DNA of 64,000 nucleotides from Candidatus Buchananbacteria bacterium (GTDB lineage Bacteria > Patescibacteriota > Patescibacteriia > 2-01-FULL-39-33 > JBAYJR01), in contig JBAYJR010000008.1 of NCBI GenBank assembly GCA_041665005.1, positions 1,423 to 65,422 of the forward strand, written 5' to 3'. The notes under the pieces were generated by a model. It made no database searches. It saw only the letters and a program-made list of their open reading frames with translations, and was not told where the DNA came from. Below are positions 6,058 through 38,896 of this stretch, one piece after another; the first letter of the stretch is position 1; the number at the start of each line of letters is the position of its first letter. Position numbers and translations under genes: made by a program.

Positions 6058-6061
6058 AAAA

Positions 6062-9251: not shown

Positions 9252-9257
9252 AAATAA

Positions 9258-10502: not shown

Positions 10503-10504
10503 AA

Positions 10505-11584: not shown

Positions 11585-11615
11585 AATGTTTTATTTTGTT
11601 TTATTTTTTAATTTT

Positions 11616-12710
11616 TTAAATAATTTCTCGCATTGCTAAGCCAACGGCGATAGACATCCGTGAACCAACTACATCCAAAACCGGTTTTAATTCTTCCGGA
11701 TACATCACTCTCGCCCAAGGATCCCCCAAATATACCTTAGTGCCTAAAATATTTGCTAAAAATTGTGGTAATTCTGGCAATAGCGCCCCGCCACCAGTTA
11801 AAATTACTTTTTCTATTTTTTGACCGGGTTGCTGTTGAAACAAATTATACGTGTATTTGATTTCATTAATAATCGGATTGAGAGCGGTTTGAAAAATTTC
11901 CAATAAATATTGTTGCCCTTTAATTTGCGTTAAGTCTCTTTTGACTTGCTCCGCCTGCCAAACCGATAATTTTAATTTTTCGGCAATTATTTTAGTCGCT
12001 GCCCAACTGCCATGTTGCAAACTCCGATGCAACAAGGGTAAACCATTTTGTACTAAAATAATTGTAGAAGTAGAAGCACCTAAATCCACTAACATGATAG
12101 AGGCCTGATCGTTGCCAATTAAAGAACGAGTCAAAGCAAAATCTTCAGTTTCCAAACTTAATAAATTTAAATCTGCGGCCTTAAAAATATTAATAAAATT
12201 TTCTACCAACCTTTTAGCGGTACCGGTCAACAAAACTTTCAAGTAAGGTTGTTGTTTAGTTAAAATTTGTTTTACCGCACCGTTGCCGTTTTCAAAAAAT
12301 TTACTACTCTTGGCCGCTAAGGGTTCGGGCCTAGCTTCGGCCACCACCTTCCAATCAATAATTACTTGATCCAAAGGTAACGGAATTAATTTTTTAGCTT
12401 CACTAAAAACTGCCTCCTTTAATTCTTTCTTTTCTAACTTAGGCAAAGTAATAATTGAAGTATAAACATCAAAACTCGGCAAAGACGCCACTACTTGACG
12501 CGAAGTAGTTTTGGCTTGCACGCAAATCTCTTTTAAAACTTTAGCCACTTCTAGGGTAGCTGGCGTAAAACCAATTTGCGATAAATTAACCAAGTTTTCA
12601 GAAAAACCGTAGGTAATTAGCTTAGGGCGTTTTTTGTCATTAGCTAGCTCCACCACCTTTAAGCCGGCACTGCCCAAATCAACCCCCAAAAAACTTGAAT
12701 TTCTAGCCAT
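11616..12710 (-). CDS. pilM: Type IV pilus assembly protein PilM (actin-like ATPase)
   Basis: 364 aa. N-terminus FLGVDLGSAGLKVVEL matches the PilM/FtsA-like sugar-kinase fold. It is the first gene of the operon. Confidence 0.8.
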   Translation of the reverse strand: MARNSSFLGVDLGSAGLKVVELANDKKRPKLITYGFSENLVNLSQIGFTPATLEVAKVLKEICVQAKTTSRQVVASLPSFDVYTSIITLPKLEKKELKEAVFSEAKKLIPLPLDQVIIDWKVVAEARPEPLAAKSSKFFENGNGAVKQILTKQQPYLKVLLTGTAKRLVENFINIFKAADLNLLSLETEDFALTRSLIGNDQASIMLVDLGASTSTIILVQNGLPLLHRSLQHGSWAATKIIAEKLKLSVWQAEQVKRDLTQIKGQQYLLEIFQTALNPIINEIKYTYNLFQQQPGQKIEKVILTGGGALLPELPQFLANILGTKVYLGDPWARVMYPEELKPVLDVVGSRMSIAVGLAMREII

Positions 12711-17983: not shown

Positions 17984-19228
17984 ATGATAATTAGCTCTTG
18001 GCCTTGGAAAAAAATTTTAATGATCGCCGGTTTTTTAATTTTGGCGGTATTTTTAGCGGTCTTACTTTATTTAGTTTTTTTTCAACCCGCCACTACCCCT
18101 AACGAACCCCTTAACAACAATCTTAATCAAGATGAGTTGCCTAATACTAATTTAAATTTAAATGCCCAATCAAATACCAATAGTAGTGGCTTAACCCCAT
18201 CAGGAGAAATAACTCAACCACAAACCAATACTAATACCGCCCCCGCCCTGGTGGCTAATGGTGGCTTAACCGAAGTTAACCAATTAACCGAAAATTCCGT
18301 GATTAGTTTAACCAGCGAAAGTGCCAAGGTTATCTACTACCAAGCCACTGACGGCAAATTTTATACCTTAAACGCCAACGGTCAACCGCAGGCCCTAAGC
18401 GATAAAATTTTTTACTCCGTGCAAAAAGCCACTTGGTCACCGGACCGCAGTCAAGCTATTTTAGAATATCCCGATGGCAGCAAAATTGTTTATAATTTTC
18501 AAACTAAAAAACAAGTCACCCTACCTAAACATTGGCAAGATTTTTCTTGGTCACCTAGCGGGGGGCAAATTGCCGCCAAAAGCTTAGGCCTAGATTCGGA
18601 CAATCGCTACATTATTGTCAGTAATGCTGATGGTAGCCAAGCAAAAATTATTGAAAGCATTGGCAACAACGCCGATAATTTTATTATTAATTGGTCACCC
18701 AACCAACAAATTATTGCCTCTTACAGCAACGGCTTAGATTTTGATCGGCAAAAAATTTATTTCGTTGGTTTAAATCAAGAAAATTTTAAAGGTATGACCG
18801 TGCCGGGTCGTGGCTTGCAAACTAAGTGGTCTACGGCCGGCGATTTATTGCTTTATAGTGTTTACACTAGCACCAACGGTTACCGCCCGGAATTATGGGT
18901 GGCTTCTGGCTTACCCAACACTATGGGCGAGGCCAGGCGCAGTCTCAAAGTTAATACCTTTGCCGATAAATGCGCTTTTGCTGATAACCAAACTTTATAT
19001 TGTGCCGTGCCAACTGACCCCGTAGAAAATAGCGGTCTACTACCGGATTTACTTAAAAATATTCCCGATAAATTACAAAAAATTAATCTTGGTACCGGAC
19101 TAGTCACAGAAATAGCCACCCTACCAACCAATTACACCATCAACAAATTAATTGCCGCCTCAGATAATTCGGCTATCTATTTTACCGCCAGCAATCAAAT
19201 GGGTTTATTTTCAATAAAACTTAAATAA
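17984..19228 (+). CDS. Membrane-anchored or secreted beta-propeller (TolB/PD40-like) protein
   Basis: 414 aa. N-terminal TM/signal anchor, an S/T/N/P-rich linker, then repeats of WSPDxxxIA / WSPSGGQIA resembling PD40 blades. Confidence 0.5.
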   Translation: MIISSWPWKKILMIAGFLILAVFLAVLLYLVFFQPATTPNEPLNNNLNQDELPNTNLNLNAQSNTNSSGLTPSGEITQPQTNTNTAPALVANGGLTEVNQLTENSVISLTSESAKVIYYQATDGKFYTLNANGQPQALSDKIFYSVQKATWSPDRSQAILEYPDGSKIVYNFQTKKQVTLPKHWQDFSWSPSGGQIAAKSLGLDSDNRYIIVSNADGSQAKIIESIGNNADNFIINWSPNQQIIASYSNGLDFDRQKIYFVGLNQENFKGMTVPGRGLQTKWSTAGDLLLYSVYTSTNGYRPELWVASGLPNTMGEARRSLKVNTFADKCAFADNQTLYCAVPTDPVENSGLLPDLLKNIPDKLQKINLGTGLVTEIATLPTNYTINKLIAASDNSAIYFTASNQMGLFSIKLK

Positions 19229-19233: not shown

Positions 19234-19989
19234 ATGCCATTCATTAAAAAAAATGCTTCCAAAAAATTTGACCGCCAATTTGTTCTGGCTTCCTTATTAA
19301 TTTTGGCCTTACTGGTCGCCACTTTAGTTTTTTTAAGAATTAGTCTAGGCGGCCTATTGACCGCTTTAAAAACTAACAGCACCGACATTACTTTGGGCGC
19401 TTTAGAAAAATTCCAAACTGGCGATTTATTAATCACCAAAGCCGACCCCTTTAGCCCCGAGGCTTCAGGTGAACCAATTATTAAAGACACTGACCAAACT
19501 CAAGGCCCGCGCAACGCCCCAATTACTTTAGTAGAATACACCGATTTTTTATGTCCTTATTGCGCCCAAATCCAACCGCTAATTAAACAAGCACAAGCAG
19601 CCTATCCCGGAAAAATTCGCTTAATTTTTAAAGACGCCCCCAACGAAAATTTACACCCCGGCAGTTGGCTAGCTCATCAAGCGGCCTGGTGCGCCCAGAA
19701 TCAAAACAAATTCTGGCCCTTTGCGGAGTTATTATGGGCACAAGTAAACTTTCAACCCACCGCTACGCAATTAACCGCTTTAGCAAAAATTTTAAAACTA
19801 AATCTGGCACAATTTAACACTTGTTTAAGCGAACAGGAAACTCTAAAATGGATTTGGCTTAATAATAAAGAAGCAGAAGCTTTAAATATTAGCAACACTC
19901 CCTTTTTTTATCTTAACCAAAAACCTTTAGGTAGTACCCTAACCTGGGAAAGTCTGAAACAAACCATTGATCAAGAATTAGCCAAATAA
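19234..19989 (+). CDS. DsbA-family thiol:disulfide oxidoreductase (thioredoxin fold)
   Basis: 251 aa. N-terminal TM anchor and a CxxC active site (FLCPYCAQI). Confidence 0.7.
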   Translation: MPFIKKNASKKFDRQFVLASLLILALLVATLVFLRISLGGLLTALKTNSTDITLGALEKFQTGDLLITKADPFSPEASGEPIIKDTDQTQGPRNAPITLVEYTDFLCPYCAQIQPLIKQAQAAYPGKIRLIFKDAPNENLHPGSWLAHQAAWCAQNQNKFWPFAELLWAQVNFQPTATQLTALAKILKLNLAQFNTCLSEQETLKWIWLNNKEAEALNISNTPFFYLNQKPLGSTLTWESLKQTIDQELAK

Positions 19990-19994: not shown

Positions 19995-20993
19995 ATGCCG
20001 AAACTAAAAAACATCTACCTAGCCCTAATTGTTTTAGGCTTGATGTTTTTACCCCTAGCGCCGATGCTTGCCGAAACCACTGTTAAACTACAGGTGCCGC
20101 TATATGGTACTAACGAAATTAGTGGCGAAGCTAGTACCATTTTGCCCACCTACATCGGCTTGTGGTTTAATTTAGTAGTTGGCACCGCTGGAGTGCTGGC
20201 CGCCATTTATATTATGTGGGGCGCTTTTAAGTGGCTAACTGCCGCCGGTAATGCCGCTACCATTAAAGACGCTCAAGAAACTATTTACAGTGCGGTGGCC
20301 GGCTTAATTATCGCCTTATTGGCTTATTCTATTTTATATATTATTAATCCCAACTTAATCAAACTACAATTGCCCGGCTTGTCATCCACAACTTATTCTA
20401 CCGAACCAGCTACTCCCCCAACCACTCAATGCAAGCAAACTCTGCCAACTTCCAACCCCTGTTCCGAGCAATATATTAATTCTGTACTCAATAGCCATCC
20501 TGAAATAAAAAAGTTATGCTCTAACATGGATTCCGGTTATATGTCGCAAATTTGCAGAATAGAAAGTTCTGGTGGCGTACCTACCCTGGTTTCTGGTACT
20601 GATAAATGTAAAGATGGCACCAGTTTTTCTTATGGACTATTTCAAATAAACATTGCGGCTCAAGGTCAAAACATTCAAGCTATAACCAACTCAAGCGCTT
20701 GCACCAATCTAATTATTAATGACAGCACTGGCCAAAATGGCAAACCACTTCAATACTCCAATGGTCGCCAAACCTATGACAGCTATACTGCCTGTAAAGA
20801 CGCCAATCCTGGTAAATTTTGCTACGTTAGTAAATGGGATTGTCGCGCCTCATCTTCCACCTCGGTAGCAGAATGCAAAAAATTACTTTTTGACCCCGAA
20901 ACCAGCATTTTACTTGCTTGCAAAATTTATGGCCGAGAAGGTTATAATGCCTGGCCGGTTAGTAATAAAAAATTACAAGCTTGCACTAATTAA
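19995..20993 (+). CDS. T4SS-pilin-like (VirB2/TrbC-like) membrane protein fused to a C-terminal lysozyme-like (VirB1/SLT-like) Cys-containing domain
   Basis: 332 aa. Signal peptide plus two hydrophobic segments (IYIMWGAFKWLTAAGN...LIIALLAYSILYIINP). C-terminal ...ICRIESSGG...SFSYGLFQIN...GYNAWP resembles the ES...GLMQIN...YNAG transglycosylase motifs. Confidence 0.5.
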   Translation: MPKLKNIYLALIVLGLMFLPLAPMLAETTVKLQVPLYGTNEISGEASTILPTYIGLWFNLVVGTAGVLAAIYIMWGAFKWLTAAGNAATIKDAQETIYSAVAGLIIALLAYSILYIINPNLIKLQLPGLSSTTYSTEPATPPTTQCKQTLPTSNPCSEQYINSVLNSHPEIKKLCSNMDSGYMSQICRIESSGGVPTLVSGTDKCKDGTSFSYGLFQINIAAQGQNIQAITNSSACTNLIINDSTGQNGKPLQYSNGRQTYDSYTACKDANPGKFCYVSKWDCRASSSTSVAECKKLLFDPETSILLACKIYGREGYNAWPVSNKKLQACTN

Positions 20994-21001: not shown

Positions 21002-21442
21002 ATGAAAAAAATCAAATTTATTCTTAGTCTAATACTTGTTCTACTGGTGGCCGGGCTACTACTTTGGCGCTTTATGCTGGAACCGAAAATTCCTAAATTA
21101 GTCATTAATACTAACCAAGGGGCAATAGAAATAAATTTGCCAAAGTCAGTTGGCCAAAAAATTAGCACCGAACCACAACGCGAAGATTATTCTCTCAAGC
21201 AAACTGACACTTACGAAATATTTGCTTACGCCTTTGGTGGTGATCAAAGTTTTTTAATTTCTCTGAAACAATATTCAGCTGTCGTCAGAACCGAAGCCGA
21301 AACTAGCTTTTTAAACTCTTTAGGAATTACTAAAAGCGCCGCTTGCAAATTGGCGGTCCTAGAGTCATTTACTGGTCTACCAGAACTAGCGGGCATTAAT
21401 TACGGCTTGAGTTTTTGTCCTGATTCCTTACCGTTAAATTAA
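21002..21442 (+). CDS. Small membrane-anchored hypothetical protein
   Basis: 146 aa with an N-terminal TM helix. It sits between the two pilin-like paralogs. Confidence 0.4.
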   Translation: MKKIKFILSLILVLLVAGLLLWRFMLEPKIPKLVINTNQGAIEINLPKSVGQKISTEPQREDYSLKQTDTYEIFAYAFGGDQSFLISLKQYSAVVRTEAETSFLNSLGITKSAACKLAVLESFTGLPELAGINYGLSFCPDSLPLN

Positions 21443-21455: not shown

Positions 21456-22394
21456 ATGTCAAAAAAAATCTTCTTCGGTCTAACCCTACTACTCTTAACT
21501 TTTACTATTGCTACTCCCCTATTGGCCGTGGATAAAAGTGCCGCTTTACAAGTAGACCTTGGCTACGGCACCGTAGTGGCAAATTTAGAAACTTATATCG
21601 GCTGGTGGTATAAGTTAATTATGGGCACAGTGGGCGTGTTGGCCACGATTTATATTATGTGGGGTGGTTTTAAATGGCTAACCGCGGCGGGTAGTTCTTC
21701 ACAAATTTCCGACGCCCAAGAAACCATCAAAGCCGCCATCGCCGGGTTGTTGATCGCTTTATTTTCTTTTTCCATACTTTATATTATTAATCCTAATTTA
21801 CTTAATCTAAATACTGAAGGAATAGGAAGTAATGATACTACAACAAGTACCGCCGACAATACTCCCGGTTGTTGCATTAATGAATATGAATCTTTAAAAC
21901 ATTCCTGTTCATATATCATCAAAAGCAACTGTACCACCAGTGATACAGTTAAATTTTACTCTAATACAACCTGCGATAAAGCAAGCAATTATTGTGCATC
22001 TACAAATTCATCAGTATATTGTAGAAGTGACTTGGCTGGTTATAGTTTAATAAAAAAAGGAGACCAGGCGACAATAAATGCCGTAAACAGAAAAACTAAT
22101 TGCAGTTATCTAGAACGTCCAATGTATTCGTCTTATGACGGAAGTGAGGCAACCACTGCTGAATTTATAGCACTTGGTTACACCAGTTACCCACAAAAAT
22201 GTTTATACGAAAGCTGTACAAACACTATATCCTGCTCTGATAAAACCGACGGGACAGCCTGTGATTATCCTAATCAAGCCGGAACACAAAAATGTTTCCG
22301 AGGAGTCTGCAAAACTTGTGTCAATTCTGGAATTAGCTGCAGTAGCGCTTCTTGTTGTAATAGTTTAACCTGTACAAACAACCTCTGCAAATAA
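21456..22394 (+). CDS. T4SS-pilin-like paralog with a Cys-rich (knottin-like) C-terminal domain
   Basis: 312 aa. The N-terminal 120 aa are paralogous to the ORF at 19995, at both protein and DNA level (IYIMWGGFKWLTAAGS...DAQETI...SILYIINPNL). The C-terminal 190 aa contain more than 30 Cys. Confidence 0.5.
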   Translation: MSKKIFFGLTLLLLTFTIATPLLAVDKSAALQVDLGYGTVVANLETYIGWWYKLIMGTVGVLATIYIMWGGFKWLTAAGSSSQISDAQETIKAAIAGLLIALFSFSILYIINPNLLNLNTEGIGSNDTTTSTADNTPGCCINEYESLKHSCSYIIKSNCTTSDTVKFYSNTTCDKASNYCASTNSSVYCRSDLAGYSLIKKGDQATINAVNRKTNCSYLERPMYSSYDGSEATTAEFIALGYTSYPQKCLYESCTNTISCSDKTDGTACDYPNQAGTQKCFRGVCKTCVNSGISCSSASCCNSLTCTNNLCK

Positions 22395-28863: not shown

Positions 28864-29115
28864 TTACTTCAAAGTATCAACTAACAAAAACTTAATTCTT
28901 TCTTTTCCTTTCCCACTTTTTAAAAATAATTCTTCAACTAAAGCATCTTTTTTACTAATAAACGTTTCATAATAAATAAGAACCCAAGGACTAAATGCTT
29001 TAGTCGACTTTACTTTTCCCCTATTATGATCAATTAGTCTTTGTTTTAAATCAGCAGTACTACCTTTATAGAGCTTATTTATTTTTTTACTTTTCAATAT
29101 ATAAACGTAATACAT
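28864..29115 (-). CDS. Small stand-alone GIY-YIG nuclease domain protein (copy 2)
   Basis: Paralog of 28227..28469 (MYYVYILKSKKINKLYKGSTADLKQRLIDH...GKGKERIKFLL). Start set at the internal ATG 29115, because the upstream part of the track ORF runs through the hairpin repeat. Confidence 0.7.
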   Translation of the reverse strand: MYYVYILKSKKINKLYKGSTADLKQRLIDHNRGKVKSTKAFSPWVLIYYETFISKKDALVEELFLKSGKGKERIKFLLVDTLK

Positions 29116-29137
29116 ATTATTATCTATGAGGTTTTTC

Positions 29138-30600: not shown

Positions 30601-32502
30601 TTAAAGATTTTTGGCTTCAGCCTGATTAATAGTTGCTTCGGCAAACTCTCTCTTGGCCGCTTCAATTTCTAATATTTGTCGCGGATCCGAGGTAATTAAC
30701 TGATCTTCGGTATAAGAGGCCACTACTTTAATCGCCGCGTGTTTATCACCGGCAAAAAATATTCCTTCACCCGGTGCACTTTCTAATAATAACAACTTTT
30801 CTCCCTGCGTTAGTAAAAAAGTTTTTTGCACCAAATCAATGGCCGCAGTAGATTGTCTAAGCAATAGCCGCAAAGAAGAATTAGTAATTACGGCCTGCCC
30901 CTCAGGTGATAATAAAAAATCATTAACATCCTGTGAAATAGTAGTCACCCCCAAATAGTAATGACGCGCCCGCTTAACTAAAGCATACAAAAATTTTGCA
31001 GAATCTTCATACATCATCAGCCACCAAGCCTCATCAATAATTAAAATACGTTTTTTTAATTCCGAACGAATCACATTCCAAATATAATAAATAATGGTAT
31101 AAATGGCCATGGGCCGTAATTCATCTTCTAAATCACGAATCGAAAAAACTACCAATTGACTACGCATTTCAACATTTGTTGGATGGTTTAATAAGCCAGA
31201 AAAAGTTCCTTCGGTATATTTTTTTAAACGTAAAGCCAAATCGGCTCCACCTTCCATCCCTTCTAAAATTTCTTGCAAATCCTGTAAAATTGGCATTTCC
31301 GGTTTAGTCTGCAAATCTGTTCCGGGGGTGATGTCTTTTTTGGCATAAGCTTCTAAAATCGCCCGATCCATAATTGAGTCTTCTTGGTGCGTAAATTGTC
31401 CCAACATTATTCGCAACAAACCTTTAATAGCAATGGAAGCGCTCAAAATAATATTAGCCGTTGTGCTTTCTTTTTCAACCGACAAGGGCAAATCAAACGG
31501 ATTAATTTTACTTTCCGAATTTAAGGAAACATTAATATAAGTACCGCCCACCGCCTCGCATAAATGCCGATATTCTCTTTCCGGATCAATAATGATTACA
31601 TCAGTGCCTAGCATTAGGCTACGCAAAACTTCTAGTTTAACTGCGTAAGATTTGCCCGCGCCCGAGGTAGCAAACACTACCATATTGGCATTGGGCAAAG
31701 AAAAACGATCAAATAAAATTAAACTATTATTGTGACGATTAATACCATACAAAACCCCATTATCAGAGGTCAGGTCAGCCGAAGCAAACGGAAAAAAAGA
31801 AGCGGCCGGCGAAGTATTCATATTAGCGGTAATTTGCAATTCATCATTTAACAACGGCAAAGTAGAATTAAAACCTTGTTCAGCTTGAAATAAAACTTTC
31901 TTAGAATAAACTTGGCGTGAACCAAAAATCGCTTCCACTCGATCAGTAATTTCCTCTAATTCTTCTTTACTAAAAGCATACAAGGTAACATAAATTGCCA
32001 CTTGAAAAAATCTTTCCACACCTTGAGTTAAATCATCCCGCAATTTTTCCATATCACGCAAGGCCGTTTCTCGCAACGGATCGCGAGGCGCACCTTTTTC
32101 GGCATCCGCTGATAACTGGGCCTCTAAATTACCTACTTTATTACGTAATTGTTTTAAAATAATCGCAGACTCCACTGGATAAAAATACATGGCAATATCC
32201 AAAGTAGAATCTAAGTTGATAATCGCATTAAACCAACCCATGCTAATATAACGCGGGTAAGTAATAACAAAAATTGTCCGTACAAAACGATCGTTTAGCC
32301 GTAAAAAATTAGCCGATACCTCAAATGCGGCCGGCGCAATTAAGTCCCGAATAGAAACTAAACCTTGTCGATAAATCTGTTCCTCTTCTAAGGTTACCTT
32401 GGCTTCTTCTAAGCTTTTGGGCGCTACCGCTTTAGCGCGGTCTAAAAAAGTACCGGCCTGATTATCCGCAATCTGATCTTTTATTTGTTTGGGGTCAAAC
32501 AT
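30601..32502 (-). CDS. VirB4/TrbE/CagE-family T4SS ATPase, C-terminal ATPase part
   Basis: 633 aa. Walker A FATSGAGKSYA and Walker B IIDEAWWLM (the DEAW motif typical of VirB4). Confidence 0.8.
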   Translation of the reverse strand: MFDPKQIKDQIADNQAGTFLDRAKAVAPKSLEEAKVTLEEEQIYRQGLVSIRDLIAPAAFEVSANFLRLNDRFVRTIFVITYPRYISMGWFNAIINLDSTLDIAMYFYPVESAIILKQLRNKVGNLEAQLSADAEKGAPRDPLRETALRDMEKLRDDLTQGVERFFQVAIYVTLYAFSKEELEEITDRVEAIFGSRQVYSKKVLFQAEQGFNSTLPLLNDELQITANMNTSPAASFFPFASADLTSDNGVLYGINRHNNSLILFDRFSLPNANMVVFATSGAGKSYAVKLEVLRSLMLGTDVIIIDPEREYRHLCEAVGGTYINVSLNSESKINPFDLPLSVEKESTTANIILSASIAIKGLLRIMLGQFTHQEDSIMDRAILEAYAKKDITPGTDLQTKPEMPILQDLQEILEGMEGGADLALRLKKYTEGTFSGLLNHPTNVEMRSQLVVFSIRDLEDELRPMAIYTIIYYIWNVIRSELKKRILIIDEAWWLMMYEDSAKFLYALVKRARHYYLGVTTISQDVNDFLLSPEGQAVITNSSLRLLLRQSTAAIDLVQKTFLLTQGEKLLLLESAPGEGIFFAGDKHAAIKVVASYTEDQLITSDPRQILEIEAAKREFAEATINQAEAKNL

Positions 32503-32511
32503 AAAAAATAA

Positions 32512-33216
32512 TTAGTCTACTCGCAATTCTTCGGGATTAGTCATTTTTTGTTTTTCGGCTAAATCCAAATTATAAGTATTATAAAATAATTCAATCAAAC
32601 TAACGGTGTCTAGTTGCGCCGCCCGCAAACCAATACCGGACAGCCCAGCCAAAACTTTTTCAATCCGCCGATCTAATTCGTGATAATAAGTGCGGAAACG
32701 TTGTTCTTCTAGGCGCAAAGCGGCGGTAGTAAAAAACAAAGAAGCAATCCTTTCCCAGAAACCGCGCCGTTTAAGCGCCTTAGAACTATAAGGCACGACC
32801 ACATAAAATCTTTTGGTCATAATTTGCCCCAATTTAATCAATTCCTTAATCGCTTGGCTATAATCAGCAATTTGCAATCTTAACAATTCATTGCTCTGTT
32901 GCCTTTCTTTTTTATTTAAATCAAGCAAATAGGCATCAATATTTAGTTGGCGCGACTGAATAACAATTTCCAAAGGAAAATCCAACATGTTTAAAAAACC
33001 AACATAATTGCCAATAATCGCCTGCTGTTCTTCTTCGGATTTTAAATCAAAATTAAGACTAGAAACCAACAACACGGCCCGCAAAGAGCCGTCCTTTAAA
33101 ATAACCGTATTTTCTTTAATTTCGGCAATTTCAACAAACCGTTGCGTCGTGGGCGTGGCCGCAGTGGCTTTATGAAATTTTAACGGCCGAGGGCCGGTAT
33201 TAATACTTTGCGCCAT
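32512..33216 (-). CDS. VirB4 N-terminal domain encoded as a separate ORF (split gene, or a frameshifted virB4)
   Basis: 234 aa. ...ENTVILKDGSLRAVLLVSSLNFDLKSEEEQQ... matches the conserved LKDGSL...D...EE block of the VirB4/TrbE N-domain. The stop lies 9 nt before the ATPase ORF's ATG, in a different frame. Confidence 0.55.
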   Translation of the reverse strand: MAQSINTGPRPLKFHKATAATPTTQRFVEIAEIKENTVILKDGSLRAVLLVSSLNFDLKSEEEQQAIIGNYVGFLNMLDFPLEIVIQSRQLNIDAYLLDLNKKERQQSNELLRLQIADYSQAIKELIKLGQIMTKRFYVVVPYSSKALKRRGFWERIASLFFTTAALRLEEQRFRTYYHELDRRIEKVLAGLSGIGLRAAQLDTVSLIELFYNTYNLDLAEKQKMTNPEELRVD

Positions 33217-33276
33217 AGTTATTCAATTATAGCAAATTTTACCTAATTTTTAAATTTTTACCAACCTAAAACTGAT

Positions 33277-33723
33277 TTATTTTTTAAGTTCCGAATTTTC
33301 CCCCGCATAATAGCCACCGGTATCTACAATTAAAGCCAATTCGGACAAACGAGAAACGCCAATCGCCTTTTTAAACATTGGCTGACTAGGGATTACTGGC
33401 ATTAAAGGTTGTTTTAGATAACTTTTTAGTTCCGCGGTGCTGTATTTTTTTCGCCAAATCCGTAATCGTGGTTTTTTAGAAGTTTCTACAAAATTGATTA
33501 AAAAATAATGAAAGGGTTGACCGTTGATTTTTAAAAACCCTAAAACCAAAACCAACAACCCTAAAACAATCGTCAAAAAAATAAAAAGGCCAATATCAGA
33601 AACTTTATATGCAATAAATTCTAAACCGCCGCCCACCACCAAAATAACAAACTGTCGGGTAGTAATCGGCCCAATAATTTTATCTTCTACTTCTAAAAAT
33701 TGTGGTACGGTAAATGCTTCCAT
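33277..33723 (-). CDS. VirB3/PrgI-like small membrane protein
   Basis: 148 aa. The N-terminus reads TVPQFLEVEDKIIGPITTRQFV and is followed by two TM helices. It lies immediately upstream of virB4, as PrgI/VirB3 do. Confidence 0.45.
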   Translation of the reverse strand: MEAFTVPQFLEVEDKIIGPITTRQFVILVVGGGLEFIAYKVSDIGLFIFLTIVLGLLVLVLGFLKINGQPFHYFLINFVETSKKPRLRIWRKKYSTAELKSYLKQPLMPVIPSQPMFKKAIGVSRLSELALIVDTGGYYAGENSELKK

Positions 33724-33766
33724 GTTTTTTACTAAATTATTTTACTAATCTGCTAACTCGCTTATC

Positions 33767-35098
33767 CTAATATTTTAGCTGCTTATTTAATTCCGCCAAA
33801 GCCTGAAATTCGGCTAAAGTTAAGGTCGGCTGATTGTTTTGCTGACGAAGGCTAATTGCCTCGCTTAATGCCTGACTAGCTAATAAGGCTTGCTGAATAA
33901 TTTGTAAATATAATTGATTTACCGGACTACTTTGCCAAGCCTTAATCCCTGCCACTTTTTTCGCAATCCCTTCGGTGGATAACAGTTCGATCTTACCACG
34001 AATTTTTTGGCGCGCTTGTTCCGGATCAGGGTTTAACCGCCGAAAATCAATCAAATCAAAGCCGGCTAATTCTTCCACTGGACCTACTAACTTTTTAGCA
34101 TATTTAATATCTTCAATCACCGGTTTTTGTGGCAATAAATCTGCGGACTTTTTAAAACCCGATGGCGCCTGTGGTTGGCCTGGTCTAGGATTAGCGTTAA
34201 CCGTTGCCATTCTTTTGGCCTGCATTAATTGATCGGTTTCGGCTACTTGATCGCTAGTCGCCAAAGTTTCCGAAGACTGCCGTAAACTTTCTAGGCTCCG
34301 ACGTTGACGATCAACAATAGTCAAAAGATTTTCGGCTTGTTCTTTGGTTAAACTTACCCCCCCGGCCGAAGCTTCATGCATTAAAAAGCCTCTAGTTTCT
34401 ACCCAATCACGAACACCGCGTAAATAAGTCATTAAAATATTAACCAACTTTTTTGTTAACTCCGGTGAAGTCAAGGTTAAACCGGCTAACTGAATTAACC
34501 GCTTGGCCTCTTGTTCTAAAATATTTGGTAAATTATCCCGTTGGCGAGCGCTATTCTGATTAGCTAATTTTTTTATTTCTTCCTCATCTTCCGGAAACAA
34601 ATGCCAATTAGAAACCGGCCGATCTAAATTTTCGGCGGATCTAACTATCCCCTGAGGCCGTGTAGGAAAAATTGTCGCCGGTAACTTGACTGGCTTAATT
34701 TCGGTTTTAGCTTCAACGCTAGTTGGCTGAACTATTATTTTGGATGTAATCAAAGGCGCCATTATCGGCTTAGTCGGTGTGGCCGGCGCTTTAACTTCAA
34801 TTTTAGATGCTGTTTTAATATAATTTAAATGCCCCAAAACCGGTTGAAAAATTTTATTTATTAAAATCGTTTTAATCTCTTTGGCTTGCTCAACGGTTAA
34901 GGTAAAATTGGCGGTTAAATAAGTTTCCAATTCTGCTAAAGCCACTTCCTGTTTGGCAATTTTTAAAACCAAATTAAAAGCATTGAGCTGATACTTATCT
35001 TTCAACTCTCTTAAAACCCGTTGGGCCGAAACATTAGCAATGGCTTGCCGCAAATTTGGCGCCAAACTATTAAATTTTGCCAAAACTTCTTCGGACAT
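33767..35098 (-). CDS. Hypothetical soluble protein (443 aa)
   Basis: Long ORF with no TM helices and no recognisable motif. Part of the T4SS-like operon. Confidence 0.4.
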   Translation of the reverse strand: MSEEVLAKFNSLAPNLRQAIANVSAQRVLRELKDKYQLNAFNLVLKIAKQEVALAELETYLTANFTLTVEQAKEIKTILINKIFQPVLGHLNYIKTASKIEVKAPATPTKPIMAPLITSKIIVQPTSVEAKTEIKPVKLPATIFPTRPQGIVRSAENLDRPVSNWHLFPEDEEEIKKLANQNSARQRDNLPNILEQEAKRLIQLAGLTLTSPELTKKLVNILMTYLRGVRDWVETRGFLMHEASAGGVSLTKEQAENLLTIVDRQRRSLESLRQSSETLATSDQVAETDQLMQAKRMATVNANPRPGQPQAPSGFKKSADLLPQKPVIEDIKYAKKLVGPVEELAGFDLIDFRRLNPDPEQARQKIRGKIELLSTEGIAKKVAGIKAWQSSPVNQLYLQIIQQALLASQALSEAISLRQQNNQPTLTLAEFQALAELNKQLKY

Positions 35099-35103
35099 AA
35101 TAA

Positions 35104-35598
35104 TTATTTTTTATCTTCTTCTTCCAAGGTCGCCTGCGCTAAAAAAGCCTTTTCTTCAGCCGAAATATCCGCCGGTAAATTATCTAAATTAAGGTTAGCC
35201 GAGGGTTTAGTTGAGGTTTGAACCGGTTTTACTGCGACTGGCTGATTAATTACGCTTGGCTGATTTGCTACCGCCGGTTTATTTGTTGTCTCTAAAACTG
35301 GTTCTGCTAAATATTCCTGGCGATTGGCCGTAATTTCCGGTAAAATTTCATACCAAACCTTATCATATAGCTCATCTTCAATTTCCAAGGCTGCTTCTTC
35401 CCCTGCTCCCAATTGTTCCACCAAAAAATCCACTACATCTTCCAGGGCTAGTTCCCCGCCTACCACCAACCAATATAAAGCCGACAGTTGTTTGGGTTCA
35501 GCTTTAAAAATTTCATACTTAGCCGGCAAAGAATTCAAAACTTCCTGCACCGCCGGACTTTGATAATAAGTTACTAATTTTTGTTCTTGATCTGCCAT
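35104..35598 (-). CDS. Hypothetical acidic protein (164 aa)
   Basis: ORF tightly packed between the VirB6-like gene and the 443-aa gene. Glu/Asp-rich. Confidence 0.4.
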   Translation of the reverse strand: MADQEQKLVTYYQSPAVQEVLNSLPAKYEIFKAEPKQLSALYWLVVGGELALEDVVDFLVEQLGAGEEAALEIEDELYDKVWYEILPEITANRQEYLAEPVLETTNKPAVANQPSVINQPVAVKPVQTSTKPSANLNLDNLPADISAEEKAFLAQATLEEEDKK

Positions 35599-35602
35599 AA
35601 AA

Positions 35603-38600
35603 TTACTTATAATATTTAATCAAACCCGAGAGTTCGTTCACGATGTCATCAATTTCTTCCTGACTACCAAACATCTTTTTCTGTTCAACTCCGGCCATAA
35701 AATTCTTCAATTCACTGCTAGCTCGGTCAAGTTTTTGTTTTTGACCAACATCTCCACTCTTTTTACTTACTTTATTTAAAGCTTTAATTCTGTTCTGTAG
35801 ACTATGCACAGTTTTATTTAAAACTTTGACATCTTTATCAAAATTTTTCATATTTAATGGCAAGCTAGACAAGCGACGAATACCCTCGGAAAAGGAAATT
35901 ATACTACGATCCAATTTAGGCAGAAAAGCTTGATTAATTTTGTCCTGCAGAATCGGATGCACCATTTGCCCCGCTACAGCCGCCGCCGTTTTAATCAACT
36001 TGGAATCACGATCTGTAACAGTTTCTCTTCTTTTTTGCTCTTCTTTGCCGGAATAATATTCATCAATCTTTTTTCTAAGGTCACCAAACAACATATAGGC
36101 GGCCCGATCATATTTTAAAACACTCGCCCCCGTATTGGCAATTTTCCTCACACCGCTCTTTTTATTTTCTTCTTCATAACGAATTCGTTCTAATGGCCGA
36201 TTAACCACGGTAAAACTATCGTCTATCGCCTTCTGATTATTTTTAGCTTCTTTAATGGCTTTTTCTTTAGTGTCTTTATTGTCTGAAAGAGTATCCCCTA
36301 AAGCGCTCGCTTGTTTATCAGTGGCCTTGCTAATATTTTCCAAATCCTTATAAACAACACTCTTCTCTTTTAAATAATCAGCAAAAGAATATTTTTCCTT
36401 TCGATCCGGCCTTAAAATATCTGTTTTAGCATCACCCTTAGAACTAGCCACCGACTCCATACTTACTCTTAATTCCTCAGCTAAATTTTTAATTTTTTCG
36501 TTTATCCCATAGGCCTGAATTTCCTCGCCTGGTTTTAATTTATCATAATTAAACTTAGCGGCCTGTTCTTTTAATACTTGCAATTCTTGCAAACGATCAT
36601 CCCAATTAGCCACTTTTAACTCTTTAACAAACATTTCTTCATTTTTTACTACCTCCGCATCCGCCGCAACATAATATTTTTCTTTATTGGCTCTAGTTTT
36701 TAAATCAGTGGACTCAATTTCTTCTCTACGCTTAACAACTTCATCACTCAACTTATTACCCGCTAAATCCTCAGCAGTTGAAATAAATTTAATACCAGTA
36801 TTTGGATCAAATCCCTCGATGTATTTTCTATCGGGGCTATCTAGCAAACCCTTAACATCACCTTTTGGAAGATTCATTGCTTCATAATCTATATTACTAC
36901 CACTATAGGCAACGGTAGCCATGTTAATTACCTTGTTCAAATCATCAATGGTATTTTTATTATTCAAATCAAAGCCTTCCTTGGCGAATAACTCCGGTTT
37001 AGCCAGCATATTTTTGACTGCCTCCATAATTTGCCGGCGACCAGCCGCACCTGCAAAACCCAAATTACCACCAGCTTTAATATAATCCGCAATACCCATA
37101 ATCTGTTGCGAAACATTAGCCCCCTTCATGCCCAAACTACTATTAGTAATCACAATATTAGACAAATCTTTTTCGGACATATTAGCCACTGTATTACGAA
37201 CAGAGTTTGCTCCAACTTCAGTGCCTACCAATTGTCCGTCCTCATTTTTGTAACCAGATACTCCCACTAAACCAGCATTTTTCCTGGTCGCCAATCTTTC
37301 CATATCATAAGCAAAGGTTTTAAAATCCGCTTCTGGAATATTAAATTGCTTTTGATATTTTTGTAAGCTTTCTCCTAATTCAGAGTCCCCTGCTTCGGCT
37401 AAAGAGGTAATTAAAGCCCGAGCCGTGCCAACATCTTTATTCTTTTTCAAAATTTCATGAGCGGCATTGGTGTTGGTAAAATCAAAACCGGATTTTTGTA
37501 AGCTATCGCGAGCCGCCATCTGTTCCTCTTGTCTAAATTTCTCAATGGCATCCGCTTTACCACCAAACTTTTGATTCATCTGAGCTTGAATTAACCGATT
37601 ATCGCGTTCAGTTTTCTTTTCATTAAAGCCCAACACCCCGCCAATTCGCGAATTAGCAAAACGATTATAAGAAGCCCGCGCCGCCGCCGGCACCCGAGTT
37701 TTTTCACCAAAATTTTTGGCAATTTTGGTACCTTTCTTTTGAATTTCCCCCATAGCTTTATTAGCTAATTGAGAACCAACTGTGCCAGCCTTACCAGCAG
37801 CAATTAAGGCGGCAATTAATAAACCAATAGTTAAAATTGAGACAAATATTTGCTCGGTTGAGGTGTTCAAAAAATCCCCCACACCTTCTCCTGTGCCCGA
37901 AACTATACCACCTACCACCTTAAACTTACTACTAATCTCGTCTTTTAAACTACCGGCCGTCACTGATCCCGTACTATCGGTTCCTGATGGACCAATCATA
38001 GCATTCAAAAAATTCATAGAGATAAACAAAAACAGGGCGATGGCTGGGCCAACCACTAAATATTTTGTGAAAGTTGACCACCACTGCCCTGAATAAGTTT
38101 GCAACGCCGGAAAAGCCGAGGCAAAATAAGCAAAAGGTGATAAAACAATTAAAAACCAAAAAGCGATTATTCTGGCTAAAAGTATAATAAAGAATATTAA
38201 GATAACTACACAAGCAATAACCGAGAATATGGCGGCAGTGGCGGCCTTAATAAAATCCTCAACACCATTGCCTAAAGCCACATTAGCTATGGCCATATAT
38301 CCTACATTAAAAAAAGCAAGAACGCCCACCTTTATTGCAATCGTATTGGTTAGTTGTTGTGCGTTACCAAGCAAAGTTAACATCACTACTTGTGAAGCAT
38401 CAATTAATAACCCCGTGAACATCTTAGAAAAATTTATCAAGATAGCCATTAACAAAACTTTGCCTAGCAACCTTTTGTAATTATAAGTTTCTACCCTTAA
38501 AATGGTGGCCACCGCAATCACTAATAAAAACACAATAAAAAAATTATTACACAAATCTCTAATAAAAACCCAACTTTGAACCACACCATCGGCATTAATA

Positions 38601-38896
38601 AAATTACTATATTCAGCCACAATGCGTAATAAAAATAAGAAAAAAGTCATCAATGTAGCAAACAGAACTCCTGTAGCTGCTAATATCTCCGTATAAGGAA
38701 ATAATACAGCCCCAAGTGCAACCTTTGTTATTCCAGCGGCAATCTGGCTACCTGTACCGGCTTCCTGTGTAGCTGGTGTTGTCCCAGCAGTCTGTGCCGA
38801 CGCTCCGGCCATTGGCAAAACTAGACAACTTAAAACCACCGCTCCCGCCACAAACGTTAAAACTTTCTTTTGATTATTTTTTAACCAGTGCTTCAT
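35603..38896 (-). CDS. VirB6/TrbL-like polytopic membrane protein with a large hydrophilic C-terminal domain
   Basis: 1097 aa. Signal peptide, then 6-8 TM helices in the first about 380 aa with conserved Trp residues, followed by about 700 aa that are charged and coiled-coil-rich. Confidence 0.55.
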   Translation of the reverse strand: MKHWLKNNQKKVLTFVAGAVVLSCLVLPMAGASAQTAGTTPATQEAGTGSQIAAGITKVALGAVLFPYTEILAATGVLFATLMTFFLFLLRIVAEYSNFINADGVVQSWVFIRDLCNNFFIVFLLVIAVATILRVETYNYKRLLGKVLLMAILINFSKMFTGLLIDASQVVMLTLLGNAQQLTNTIAIKVGVLAFFNVGYMAIANVALGNGVEDFIKAATAAIFSVIACVVILIFFIILLARIIAFWFLIVLSPFAYFASAFPALQTYSGQWWSTFTKYLVVGPAIALFLFISMNFLNAMIGPSGTDSTGSVTAGSLKDEISSKFKVVGGIVSGTGEGVGDFLNTSTEQIFVSILTIGLLIAALIAAGKAGTVGSQLANKAMGEIQKKGTKIAKNFGEKTRVPAAARASYNRFANSRIGGVLGFNEKKTERDNRLIQAQMNQKFGGKADAIEKFRQEEQMAARDSLQKSGFDFTNTNAAHEILKKNKDVGTARALITSLAEAGDSELGESLQKYQKQFNIPEADFKTFAYDMERLATRKNAGLVGVSGYKNEDGQLVGTEVGANSVRNTVANMSEKDLSNIVITNSSLGMKGANVSQQIMGIADYIKAGGNLGFAGAAGRRQIMEAVKNMLAKPELFAKEGFDLNNKNTIDDLNKVINMATVAYSGSNIDYEAMNLPKGDVKGLLDSPDRKYIEGFDPNTGIKFISTAEDLAGNKLSDEVVKRREEIESTDLKTRANKEKYYVAADAEVVKNEEMFVKELKVANWDDRLQELQVLKEQAAKFNYDKLKPGEEIQAYGINEKIKNLAEELRVSMESVASSKGDAKTDILRPDRKEKYSFADYLKEKSVVYKDLENISKATDKQASALGDTLSDNKDTKEKAIKEAKNNQKAIDDSFTVVNRPLERIRYEEENKKSGVRKIANTGASVLKYDRAAYMLFGDLRKKIDEYYSGKEEQKRRETVTDRDSKLIKTAAAVAGQMVHPILQDKINQAFLPKLDRSIISFSEGIRRLSSLPLNMKNFDKDVKVLNKTVHSLQNRIKALNKVSKKSGDVGQKQKLDRASSELKNFMAGVEQKKMFGSQEEIDDIVNELSGLIKYYK

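What the first reader, a model, noticed from the sequence alone, without database searches (positions are those of the whole stretch)
19995..20993. Fusion of a T4SS-pilin-like N-domain with a VirB1/SLT-like lytic transglycosylase domain
After the pilin-like double-helix segment, the C-terminal region reads ...ICRIESSGG(V)...SFSYGLFQIN...LLFDPETSILLACKIYGREGYNAWP. This parallels the catalytic E-S ... G-L-M-Q-I-N ... A-Y-N-A-G pattern of family-1 lytic transglycosylases (VirB1, IagB, Slt). T4SS normally encode VirB1 as a separate wall-opening enzyme. Here the muralytic module appears to be appended to a pilin-like protein. No stand-alone VirB1 is visible in the operon at 30-48 kb.
Basis: partly seen in the sequence, partly recalled or inferred. 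Interest (0 to 1): 0.65.

Follow-up and report, generated by a model that had tools for sequence, protein, structure and literature searches.

The report
Pilin-anchored lysozyme of CPR secretion system
A gene in an ultra-small Patescibacteria (CPR) bacterium joins a type IV secretion pilin-like membrane module to a lysozyme-like wall-cutting domain. The fusion is real, common in that group and linked to its secretion-system genes. Pfam already holds both domain families, but I found no paper describing the fusion.

Summary
ORF 19995-20993 (332 aa, Candidatus Buchananbacteria MAG) has four parts:
- a signal peptide;
- a two-helix VirB2-like T4SS_pilin module (PF18895);
- a Pro/Thr linker;
- a 12-Cys C-terminal domain carrying the quoted ES...GLFQIN...W motifs.

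The C-domain gets no direct Pfam SLT hit. It does belong to a family of at least 163 cluster representatives. 50 of 52 aligned members match Pfam SLT_3 (PF18896, "Lysozyme like domain") and 15 of 52 match SLT.

A profile built without the query scores it at E = 5e-27. Across 236 domains, Glu190, Gly214, Gln217 and Trp320 are 100% conserved.

83% of family proteins carry the pilin module, always N-terminal. In 70 related genes the fusion sits next to VirB4/PrgI, or in a module of propeller protein, (DsbA), pilin::lysozyme, small protein and pilin::peptidase. Locus L060 has this window's exact gene order next to VirB4.

Best reading: a membrane- or pilus-tethered peptidoglycan glycosidase that serves as the wall-cutting part of the CPR type IV secretion system.

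It is a new variant of a known kind. Pfam holds both domains, and relatives pass both thresholds. The literature I could search does not describe the fusion. Interest is moderate.

The parts
19995..20993 (+). Complete ORF (332 aa plus stop): pilin::lysozyme-like fusion. NCBI names it 'hypothetical protein WCW02_03705, Candidatus Buchananbacteria bacterium'.
19995..20072 (+). Probable Sec signal peptide, aa 1-26 (...PLAPMLA|ETT). The cleavage site is inferred, not predicted with a dedicated tool.
   Evidence: Hydrophobic segment aa 3-30; the sequence itself
20145..20345 (+). VirB2-like T4SS_pilin module: two transmembrane helices (aa ~53-78 and ~95-117) joined by the short loop KWLTAAGNAATIKDAQET. 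It ends in the conserved INPNL motif.
   Evidence: PF18895 E = 2.2e-5; NF045849 pilin-like, weak; helix hairpin; 59% identity to the paralogue's N-domain
20346..20429 (+). Pro/Thr/Ser-rich linker (aa 118-145); Gly-rich in relatives.
20430..20990 (+). Lysozyme-like (Pfam SLT_3-type) domain, aa 146-332, with 12 Cys. The AF2 model has pLDDT 93.
20562..20567 (+). Codons for Glu190-Ser191 (GAA AGT). Glu190 is the putative catalytic acid at the C-terminal end of a helix; it is conserved in 100% of 236 family domains.
20601..20651 (+). Asp203 ... Ser212-x-Gly214-Leu-x-Gln217-x-Asn219 (SGTDKC...FSYGLFQIN). This is the beta-hairpin and GLxQ substrate-site region. D203 is 99% conserved, S212 98%, G214 and Q217 100%, N219 99%.
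20952..20954 (+). Trp320, 100% conserved.
21002..21442 (+). 146-aa single-pass membrane protein and conserved partner gene. Homologues lie directly downstream of 40 of 60 fused genes. Invariant residues are R96, A99, C115 and C139, with a C-terminal GLSFCP motif. It matches no known family.
21456..22394 (+). Paralogous pilin (312 aa) with an unrelated orphan C-domain holding 20 Cys. In relatives this position holds pilin::Peptidase_M15_4 or pilin::NlpC/P60.
19234..19989 (+). DsbA-like thiol-disulfide oxidoreductase, ending 5 nt upstream of the fusion gene. It is a plausible oxidant for the Cys-rich exported domains. The same position is occupied in L060, but DsbA is adjacent in only 5 of 73 loci.
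17984..19228 (+). 414-aa membrane-anchored protein with weak, sub-threshold beta-propeller Pfam hits. Homologues lie within 2 kb of 35 of 60 fused genes.
30601..38896 (-). Core of the monoderm-type T4SS operon: VirB4 (30601-32502), TraC-like (32512-33216), PrgI/VirB3 (33277-33723) and a VirB6-like 1097-aa protein (35603-38896). It continues into the 2862-aa ORF 38907-47495. It lies 9.6 kb from the fusion gene on the opposite strand.

Best explanation
The gene encodes an exported, membrane-inserted protein. After a signal peptide, a VirB2-like two-helix T4SS_pilin module places both ends outside the cytoplasmic membrane. A flexible linker then carries a lysozyme-fold glycosidase domain with 12 cysteines (probably disulfide-bonded) on the outer face, and a DsbA-like gene lies immediately upstream.

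The domain most likely cleaves the glycan strands of peptidoglycan. Glu190 would act as the general acid at the end of a helix, and the S/D/GLxQxN/W residues would line the cleft.

The protein is a component of the Patescibacteria type IV secretion apparatus and supplies the wall-cutting function that VirB1 (diderms) or PrgK/TraG (monoderms) supply elsewhere. It belongs to a conserved module of pilin-anchored wall hydrolases: pilin::lysozyme, a small partner protein, and a second pilin that in relatives carries an M15 or NlpC/P60 peptidase.

Shown here: domain identities, family conservation, architecture and gene linkage.
Inferred: topology, catalysis, and role in the T4SS.
Not resolved: whether the target is the cell's own wall or the host's, and whether the reaction is hydrolysis or lytic transglycosylation.
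For: Domains:
- PF18895 matches aa 51-116.
- The family matches SLT_3 in 50 of 52 members and SLT in 15 of 52.
- Relatives P0138, P0164, P0190 and P0169 pass both Pfam cut-offs.
- The leave-one-out profile gives E = 5.3e-27.

Structure:
- The AF2 model has pLDDT 93. The catalytic Glu lies at the C-terminal end of helix 45-55 (domain numbering), followed by short strands and then a helix, the order seen in lysozymes.
- Three of the four Foldseek PDB hits are lysozymes (hen lysozyme twice, as chains of antibody complexes by my identification, and goose lysozyme) and the fourth is a GH19 chitinase. The top BFVD hits are dominated by SLT and LT_GEWL proteins. All are weak.
- hhalign against real VirB1 sequences aligns ES and GLxQIN (Prob 72%, E = 3.3e-5).

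Conservation:
- E190, G214, Q217 and W320 are 100% conserved; S191, D203 and N219 are 99% or more, over 236 domains.

Architecture:
- 195 of 236 family proteins have the pilin module, always N-terminal.

Gene context, over 70 distinct genes of which 60 are fused:
- VirB4 lies within 10 kb of 28 fused genes and within 3 kb of 18.
- The propeller-protein homologue lies within 2 kb of 35.
- The small partner lies directly downstream of 40.
- 57 of 60 have at least one of these three.
- L001 reads PrgI, TraC-like, VirB4, X, fusion.
- L060 reads PrgI, TraC-like, VirB4..., propeller, DsbA, fusion, small, long pilin. That is the window's order, contiguous with the T4SS.

Companion enzymes:
- Companion pilins carry Peptidase_M15_4 (E = 8e-16 and 8e-18) or NlpC/P60 (E = 3e-7 and 2e-6).

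No other wall hydrolase was found in the window.

Literature:
- T4SS and pilin genes are essential in Southlakia epibionticum, and most Patescibacteria with VirB2 lack a detectable VirB1 (PMC10633639, PMC12102498).
Against: - The query hits neither SLT_3 nor SLT in Pfam, and its pilin hit is 1.8 bits under the cut-off.
- It differs from the family at two strongly conserved positions: Val291 where 89% have Tyr, and Ser304 where 95% have Asn. It could therefore be a weakened or retargeted enzyme.
- In this window the gene lies 9.6 kb from VirB4 on the other strand, among housekeeping genes (clpB, radA, recG).
- No short stand-alone pilin exists in the 64 kb, so a pilus role is not supported here.
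- There is no biochemical evidence for any member of the family.
Confidence: 0.7

Rival explanations
1. Host-directed weapon on a filament. The pilin module polymerises into, or caps, a T4SS pilus, so that lysozyme and peptidase heads are presented at the contact site and open the wall of the host bacterium on which the CPR cell lives. The small downstream protein protects the producer as an inhibitor or immunity factor.
For: - In pilin arrays there is one fusion among five to six short pilins (L003, L005, L025, L013). That ratio resembles a minor or tip pilin.
- Muramidase and peptidase heads occur on paralogous pilins.
- A conserved small exported partner lies next to the enzyme gene in 40 of 60 cases. 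A precedent is the Brucella T4SS autolysin SagA with its inhibitor PhiA (PMC8334348).
- The T4SS and the pilin series are essential for epibiotic growth in Southlakia (PMC10633639).
Against: - In 17 of 18 loci where the fusion is within 3 kb of VirB4, it is the only pilin-like gene within 6 kb. The window also has no short pilin.
- A filament built only of subunits with 200-aa heads is sterically doubtful (inference).
- The partner protein is absent from the VirB4-adjacent layout.
- No polymerisation evidence exists.
Confidence: 0.2
2. Housekeeping autolysin. The pilin-like hairpin is only a membrane anchor, and the enzyme remodels the cell's own wall for growth or division, independently of the T4SS.
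For: - In this window the gene sits in a tight same-strand run with clpB, a DsbA-like gene and radA, away from the T4SS operon.
- L004 has the same ClpB-linked placement.
- CPR genomes are small and reuse modules (general knowledge).
Against: - 28 of 60 fused genes lie within 10 kb of VirB4 and 35 of 60 beside the propeller protein that itself follows the T4SS genes.
- L060 shows the whole module contiguous with VirB4.
- The anchor is specifically a T4SS_pilin fold, not a generic transmembrane helix.
Confidence: 0.08
3. Non-catalytic lysozyme-like domain used as a glycan- or peptidoglycan-binding adhesin head.
For: - The query lacks two residues that are conserved in the family, Tyr291 and Asn304.
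- The paralogue's head is a Cys-rich orphan domain that looks like a binding module.
Against: The catalytic-type Glu and the whole ES / D / GLxQxN / W set are retained in the query and are 97-100% conserved across 236 domains. That pattern is typical of active enzymes.
Confidence: 0.05
4. Chance motif resemblance: the C-terminal region is not lysozyme-related at all.
For: - There is no direct Pfam hit for the query.
- Foldseek E-values are above 0.01.
- A profile search of PDB sequences returned only spurious RNase A hits.
Against: - Relatives at E = 1e-18 to 1e-10 carry SLT_3 above the Pfam cut-off.
- The leave-one-out profile gives E = 5e-27.
- Weak structural hits are dominated by lysozymes and transglycosylases: three of four in PDB, and most of the top BFVD matches.
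- hhalign against VirB1 gives E = 3.3e-5.
Confidence: 0.02

Closest known systems
Pfam architecture T4SS_pilin (PF18895) + SLT_3 (PF18896) in uncharacterised Patescibacteria proteins
   Same: The domain order, size (~290-350 aa), Cys pattern and invariant residues are the same. Relatives P0138, P0164, P0190 and P0169 pass both cut-offs. The query is a divergent member (leave-one-out E = 5e-27).
   Different: The query falls below both Pfam cut-offs, has a ~25-aa insertion (around aa 247-275) and differs at Tyr291 and Asn304. No member has been studied. The one paper I found that uses PF18895 (PMC12102498) does not mention the fusion.
VirB1-type specialised lytic transglycosylases of T4SS (A. 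tumefaciens VirB1, IncN TraL and related; GH23 / Pfam SLT)
   Same: Both are lysozyme-superfamily domains with a catalytic Glu-Ser and a GLxQIN motif that align. Both are genetically tied to a T4SS, and both neighbour the pilin function: in four of the six MPF_T plasmids fetched, the gene directly downstream of virB1 is annotated VirB2/TrbC.
   Different: VirB1 is a soluble periplasmic stand-alone protein, with no fusion to pilin. In operons the order is virB1 then virB2, whereas here the pilin is N-terminal. Only about 40 columns align. The AYNxG motif is absent. The extra invariant Asp203 and Ser212, the many cysteines and the beta-rich insert are not VirB1 features.
Monoderm T4SS wall hydrolases PrgK (pCF10), TraG (pIP501), TcpG
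   Same: They are membrane-tethered, face outward, and combine a muramidase/SLT function with a peptidase function (CHAP, NlpC/P60 or LytM). The CPR T4SS is of the same monoderm (MPF-FATA) lineage (PMC12102498).
   Different: In those proteins one polypeptide with a simple transmembrane anchor carries all the hydrolase domains. Here the activities are split over separate proteins, each anchored by a VirB2-like pilin hairpin, which monoderm conjugative systems lack.
Goose-type and hen-type lysozymes (GH23, GH22)
   Same: The Glu lies at a helix end, followed by a beta-hairpin and GLxQIN. Goose and hen lysozymes are among the few PDB fold hits. An insect C-type lysozyme is the best PDB sequence hit (E = 0.24).
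   Different: The hen lysozyme Asp52 position is Ser212, which is 98% Ser in the family (my motif alignment). Pfam Lys is hit by only 1 of 52 members. hhalign against hen lysozyme gives Prob 0.8%. The domain is not a member of GH22.
Brucella T4SS autolysin SagA with inhibitor PhiA
   Same: A lysozyme-like enzyme serves a T4SS and comes with a dedicated small partner protein (PMC8334348).
   Different: There is no detectable sequence relationship. The inhibitor role of the 146-aa partner here is only a hypothesis.

Membership tests
Pfam PF18895 T4SS_pilin (VirB2-like pilins of CPR and Mollicutes ICEs) | Profile match at or above the gathering score (26.6 bits) | tested here: not met
   The query scores 24.8 bits, E = 2.2e-5, over aa 51-116. 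The paralogue 21456-22394 scores 28.1 bits and is 59% identical over 105 aa. Membership is therefore well supported through the paralogue, although the formal cut-off is missed by 1.8 bits.
Pfam PF18895 T4SS_pilin / VirB2-TrbC fold | Signal peptide followed by two hydrophobic helices joined by a short polar loop | tested here: met
   Hydrophobic segments at aa 3-30, 53-78 and 95-122; helices 46-83 and 87-117 in the single-sequence model, which is of low confidence.
Pfam PF04956 TrbC/VirB2 | Profile match at or above the gathering score (27.9 bits) | tested here: not met
   The query has no hit. The paralogue scores 17.3 bits, E = 0.0057.
VirB2-type pilin (function) | Polymerises into a T4SS pilus | not testable with these tools
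   Context only: one fusion among short pilins in some arrays, but the sole pilin-like gene near VirB4 in 17 of 18 loci.
Pfam PF18896 SLT_3 (Lysozyme like domain) | Profile match at or above the gathering score (27 bits) | tested here: not met
   The query has no hit even at E <= 10. However, 50 of 52 aligned relatives hit SLT_3 (best E = 1e-9) and several pass 27 bits. The query matches a profile of those relatives at E = 5.3e-27. It is a divergent member by transitive homology.
Family-1 lytic transglycosylases / Pfam PF01464 SLT (GH23), including VirB1 | Motif I: catalytic Glu-Ser at the end of a helix | tested here: met
   E190-S191 are 100% and 99.6% conserved, lie at the C-terminal end of helix 45-55 of the model, and align with the VirB1 VES.
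Family-1 lytic transglycosylases / Pfam PF01464 SLT (GH23), including VirB1 | Motif II: G-L-M-Q | tested here: met
   G214-L-F-Q217, with G and Q 100% conserved; aligned to GLMQIN of VirB1.
Family-1 lytic transglycosylases / Pfam PF01464 SLT (GH23), including VirB1 | Motif III: A-Y-N-x-G | tested here: not met
   The query's YNAW is not conserved in its family (Y 3%, N 15%, A 22%); only W320 is. The hhalign alignment does not extend to this region.
Family-1 lytic transglycosylases / Pfam PF01464 SLT (GH23), including VirB1 | Profile match at or above the gathering score (21.3 bits) | tested here: not met
   The query has no hit. 15 of 52 relatives hit SLT at E <= 1 (best E = 5.3e-6). Those shown in detail were below the cut-off: 18.6 and 16.3 bits.
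Lytic transglycosylase (reaction type) | Product carries 1,6-anhydro-MurNAc (no water used) | not testable with these tools
   Needs muropeptide analysis. The invariant Asp203, 13 residues after the Glu, leaves a hydrolytic goose-lysozyme-like mechanism open (inference).
VirB1 orthologue | Stand-alone secreted protein encoded at the head of the virB operon, directly before virB2 | tested here: not met
   Here the domain is fused C-terminal to the pilin module. VirB1 genes fetched for comparison are separate genes, and four of the six are followed directly by a gene annotated VirB2/TrbC.
C-type lysozyme (GH22, Pfam PF00062) | Glu35 plus Asp52 catalytic pair; profile match | tested here: not met
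   By my motif alignment the Asp52 position is Ser212, 98% Ser in the family. Pfam Lys is hit by 1 of 52 members at E = 0.037. hhalign against hen lysozyme gives Prob 0.8%.
Lysozyme-like fold (superfamily level) | The predicted 3D structure superposes on lysozymes or transglycosylases | tested here: inconclusive

The most novel reading that the evidence does not exclude
The T4SS filament of Patescibacteria is an enzyme-armed pilus. Paralogous VirB2-like pilins carrying a muramidase head (this gene), peptidase heads (M15 or NlpC/P60 in relatives) or orphan Cys-rich heads (the neighbouring gene) are built into the tip or shaft. They cut through the host bacterium's wall at the attachment site, and the conserved small downstream protein shields the producer. 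This would explain why the T4SS and pilin arrays are essential for the epibiotic lifestyle, and why no VirB1 is found in most of these genomes.
Probability: 0.2. Interest if true: 0.85.

Novelty: new variant of a known kind. Interest (0 to 1): 0.52.

Why it matters
Reviews state that the role of the type IV secretion system in Patescibacteria is completely unknown (PMC11665869), yet it is essential for epibiotic growth in the one species tested (PMC10633639). A 2025 survey concluded that most Patescibacteria with VirB2-like pilins lack VirB1, and that pilus biogenesis may not need one (PMC12102498).

The present analysis shows that some of those "pilins" themselves carry the missing wall-cutting domain. 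Sister pilins carry peptidoglycan peptidases. In 17 of 18 VirB4-adjacent loci the fusion is the only pilin-like gene nearby.

This changes how "VirB2 homologue" counts in CPR should be read. It also gives concrete enzymes with named catalytic residues for testing how these cells open a wall, whether their own or their host's.

The finding is not a new fold or a new principle. T4SS-linked muramidases are well known, and Pfam already holds both domain families.

Tried and rejected
- Single-sequence AF2 of the full protein gave pLDDT 43 and was useless for the C-domain. It was replaced by an alignment-based model of the domain.
- The word-indexed homologue search with the C-domain found only the protein itself. 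The exhaustive HMMER search was needed.
- A profile search of PDB sequences returned only pancreatic RNase hits at E = 0.25 or worse. I judged these to be Cys-rich compositional noise.
- Foldseek against PDB gave no significant hit.
- I considered that the domain is a bacterial C-type (GH22) lysozyme, because the best PDB sequence hit was silkworm lysozyme and the C-terminus resembles GMNAW...C. I rejected this. The Asp52 position is an invariant Ser, Pfam Lys hits 1 of 52 members, and hhalign gives Prob 0.8%.
- I asked whether the small downstream protein or the paralogue's head belongs to any known family. Pfam, PDB, PADLOC and the homologue search found nothing.
- I asked whether DsbA adjacency is general. 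It is not: 5 of 73 loci.
- I asked whether a second lysozyme-like gene or another wall hydrolase hides in the window. None was found.
- Model coordinates are not exposed to scripts. Disulfide pairing and the Glu190-Asp203 geometry could therefore not be measured.
Full report
**What is there**

ORF 19995-20993 (+) is an uninterrupted 332-codon frame. Its exact sequence is on record at NCBI as a hypothetical protein of a Candidatus Buchananbacteria MAG, a Patescibacteria/CPR lineage.

It starts 5 nt after a DsbA-like gene ends. An 8-nt gap separates it from a 146-codon ORF, and another 13 nt on lies a 312-codon ORF. This is a tight same-strand run.

**N-terminal half**

- Three hydrophobic segments lie at aa 3-30, 53-78 and 95-122.
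- A helix hairpin is predicted at aa 46-83 and 87-117.
- Pfam T4SS_pilin (PF18895) matches aa 51-116 at E = 2.2e-5, 24.8 bits against a 26.6-bit cut-off.
- A weak match to the Mbov_0395 pilin-like conjugal transfer family was also found.

The neighbouring ORF 21456-22394 passes the PF18895 cut-off (28.1 bits). Its first 119 residues are 59% identical to those of the fusion (E = 2e-38), while the two C-terminal halves are unrelated.

With a cleaved signal peptide and two membrane helices, the C-terminal domain is predicted to lie outside the cytoplasmic membrane. This is an inference. It is consistent with the 12 cysteines and the adjacent DsbA-like gene.

**C-terminal half**

Pfam gives no SLT, SLT_3 or lysozyme hit for this protein even at E <= 10. 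The word-indexed homologue search found only the protein itself.

The exhaustive HMMER scan of 1.84 billion cluster representatives found 163 relatives at E <= 1e-3, the best at 5.5e-18. The domain is nearly always at the C-terminus of 280-500-aa proteins.

I aligned 52 domains as A1.
- Scanned one by one, 50 of 52 hit Pfam SLT_3 (PF18896, "Lysozyme like domain", best E = 1e-9).
- 15 of 52 hit SLT (PF01464, best E = 5.3e-6).
- A profile built without the query scores it at 111 bits, E = 5.3e-27 at whole-database size.

The query is therefore a divergent but secure member of an SLT_3-type family.

Over 236 family domains:
- Glu190, Gly214, Gln217 and Trp320 are 100% conserved.
- Ser191, Asp203 and Asn219 are 99% or more.
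- Ser212 is 98% and Ser200 is 97%.

In the third (YNAW, read as AYNAG) only the Trp is conserved. The query also departs from the family at Tyr291 (Val in the query) and Asn304 (Ser in the query).

**Fold**

With alignment A1, AF2 gives a confident model (pLDDT 93, pTM 0.85). Glu190 closes a helix. Short strands holding GLFQIN follow, then a helix, a beta-rich insert and three C-terminal helices. This is the order of elements in lysozymes and transglycosylases.

Foldseek gives only weak matches, but their nature is consistent.
- Of the four PDB hits, two are chains of antibody complexes that I identify as hen lysozyme, one is a goose-type lysozyme and one a GH19 chitinase (E >= 1.7).
- In BFVD the top hits are mainly phage SLT and LT_GEWL proteins (best E = 0.024, prob 0.96).

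I fetched six real VirB1-type transglycosylases from MPF_T plasmids and ran hhalign against A1. It gave Prob 72% and E = 3.3e-5 over 40 columns, pairing E190-S191 with the VirB1 VES and GLFQIN with GLMQIN.

A C-type lysozyme assignment, suggested by a weak silkworm lysozyme hit, fails.
- The Asp52 position is an invariant Ser.
- Pfam Lys hits 1 of 52 members.
- hhalign against hen lysozyme gives Prob 0.8%.

**The fusion is the rule, and it belongs to the T4SS**

Of 236 family proteins retrieved, 195 carry the pilin module, always N-terminal. 26 are short, either fragments or stand-alone domains. The other 15 lack a detectable pilin module; most of them are 565-1165-aa proteins. Relatives P0138, P0164, P0190 and P0169 pass both Pfam cut-offs, so relatives pass both Pfam cut-offs on one polypeptide.

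A scan of GTDB species genomes gave 67 loci. Nearly all carry Patescibacteria titles (Parcubacteria, Nomurabacteria, Kaiserbacteria, Paceibacterota, Doudnabacteria, Moranbacteria).

I searched 73 loci with local profiles. They hold 70 distinct genes, 60 of them fused. Among the fused genes:
- VirB4 lies within 10 kb of 28 and within 3 kb of 18.
- A homologue of window ORF 17984-19228 lies within 2 kb of 35.
- A homologue of window ORF 21002-21442 lies directly downstream of 40.
- 57 of 60 have at least one of these neighbours.

Two layouts recur.
- Layout A: PrgI, TraC-like, VirB4, X, fusion, propeller protein (for example L001, beside dnaA).
- Layout B: VirB4, ..., propeller protein, (DsbA), fusion, small protein, long pilin.

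L060 has exactly the window's order, DsbA included, contiguous with PrgI, TraC-like and VirB4. In the window the same module has been separated from the T4SS operon (VirB4 30601-32502, PrgI, VirB6-like, minus strand) by 9.6 kb and an inversion.

**Companion pilins carry peptidases**

In layout B the long pilin after the small protein carries Peptidase_M15_4 (E = 7.8e-16 and 7.6e-18) or NlpC/P60 (E = 2.8e-7 and 1.8e-6).

The T4SS_pilin module is thus a recurrent carrier for several classes of peptidoglycan hydrolase. Between them these reproduce the muramidase-plus-peptidase content of monoderm T4SS hydrolases such as PrgK and TraG (as described in PMC12102498).

The window's own second pilin has an orphan head with 20 Cys and no detectable relative.

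**No other wall hydrolase in the window**

Pfam scans of the ORFs of 100 aa or more that I scanned (nearly all; 28864-29187 and the partial ORF at the window's 3' end were not scanned) found none. The family HMM found no second copy in six frames.

**Mechanism proposed**

The steps are: Sec export; hairpin insertion; a probably disulfide-bonded lysozyme-like head held on a ~28-aa linker outside the membrane; and glycan-strand cleavage with Glu190 as the acid.

Asp203 is invariant and lies 13 residues downstream of Glu190. As I recall goose-type lysozyme, it has a similarly spaced second acid. Hydrolysis rather than lytic transglycosylation therefore remains possible, and sequence cannot decide this.

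I put the T4SS-linked wall-cutting role at about 0.7. The data cannot separate own-wall remodelling (VirB1-like) from attack on the host wall.
- The array context, with one fusion among several short pilins, and the conserved small partner favour a displayed, possibly inhibitor-controlled enzyme.
- The fusion being the sole pilin-like gene near VirB4 in 17 of 18 loci favours a membrane-anchored assembly factor.

**Comparison with what is known, and novelty**

Relatives pass both Pfam cut-offs, so the architecture is not a sequence-level discovery.

I found no paper that describes it.
- A full-text search for PF18895, PF18896, T4SS_pilin and SLT_3 found one relevant paper.
- That paper, PMC12102498, used PF18895 to count VirB2-like pilins. 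[quoted passage not shown]
- The Southlakia Tn-seq paper and a 2024 perspective do not mention them either.

Relative to characterised systems this is a new variant of T4SS-associated peptidoglycan hydrolases.

Noticed in passing
window 21002-21442 (+): A 146-aa single-pass membrane protein. Its homologues sit directly downstream of the pilin::lysozyme gene in 40 of 60 related genes. Invariant residues are R96, A99, C115 and C139, with a C-terminal GLSFCP motif. It has no Pfam, PDB or PADLOC match. It could be an inhibitor or immunity partner, or an unrecognised T4SS subunit.
   Followed up: partly
window 21456-22394 (+): A second T4SS_pilin protein, named 'pilin' by NCBI. Its N-domain is 59% identical to the fusion's, but its head is an orphan with 20 Cys (ending CFRGVCKTCVNSGISCSSASCCNSLTCTNNLCK). 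It occupies the slot where relatives have pilin::Peptidase_M15_4 or pilin::NlpC/P60. No homologue was found apart from itself.
   Followed up: partly
window 17984-19228 (+): A 414-aa membrane-anchored protein with weak beta-propeller-like Pfam hits. Its homologues lie within 2 kb of 35 of 60 fusion genes and directly follow the fusion in VirB4-adjacent loci. It is probably an unnamed T4SS accessory component.
   Followed up: partly
L007 3789-6938 and 8604-10709; L008 2-2164; L014 7811-10465: In records titled 'archaeon' (one of them Aenigmatarchaeota), the same lysozyme-like domain sits at the C-terminus of large non-pilin proteins (885 and 1050 aa in the two scanned), one of which has CarboxypepD_reg domains. 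I did not check whether these contigs are truly archaeal.
   Followed up: partly
window 38907-47495 (-): A giant 2862-aa ORF immediately upstream of the VirB6-like gene in the T4SS operon. It has no Pfam family at E <= 1e-3.
   Followed up: no
window 53861-57379 (-): A leucyl-tRNA synthetase of 1171 aa with an inserted Ser_hydrolase / alpha-beta hydrolase domain at residues ~610-793. A separate gene of the same hydrolase type lies at 61280-61903.
   Followed up: no
window 5308-12710 (-): A type IV pilus cluster, distinct from the T4SS: prepilin peptidase, an N-methyl-motif pilin, a response regulator, a T2SSE-type ATPase and PilM.
   Followed up: no
L003 8551-13008; L005 8551-12542; L025 6199-10140; L013 9497-13472: Pilin arrays of six to eight T4SS_pilin genes. 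The lysozyme fusion is the first or second gene and the rest are mostly short pilins (~120-190 aa). This matches the 'VirB2 arrays' of PMC12102498.
   Followed up: partly
window 20865-20867 and 20904-20906: The query has Val291 and Ser304, where 89% and 95% of family members have Tyr and Asn. It also has a ~25-aa insertion around aa 247-275. It may be a functionally shifted member.
   Followed up: no
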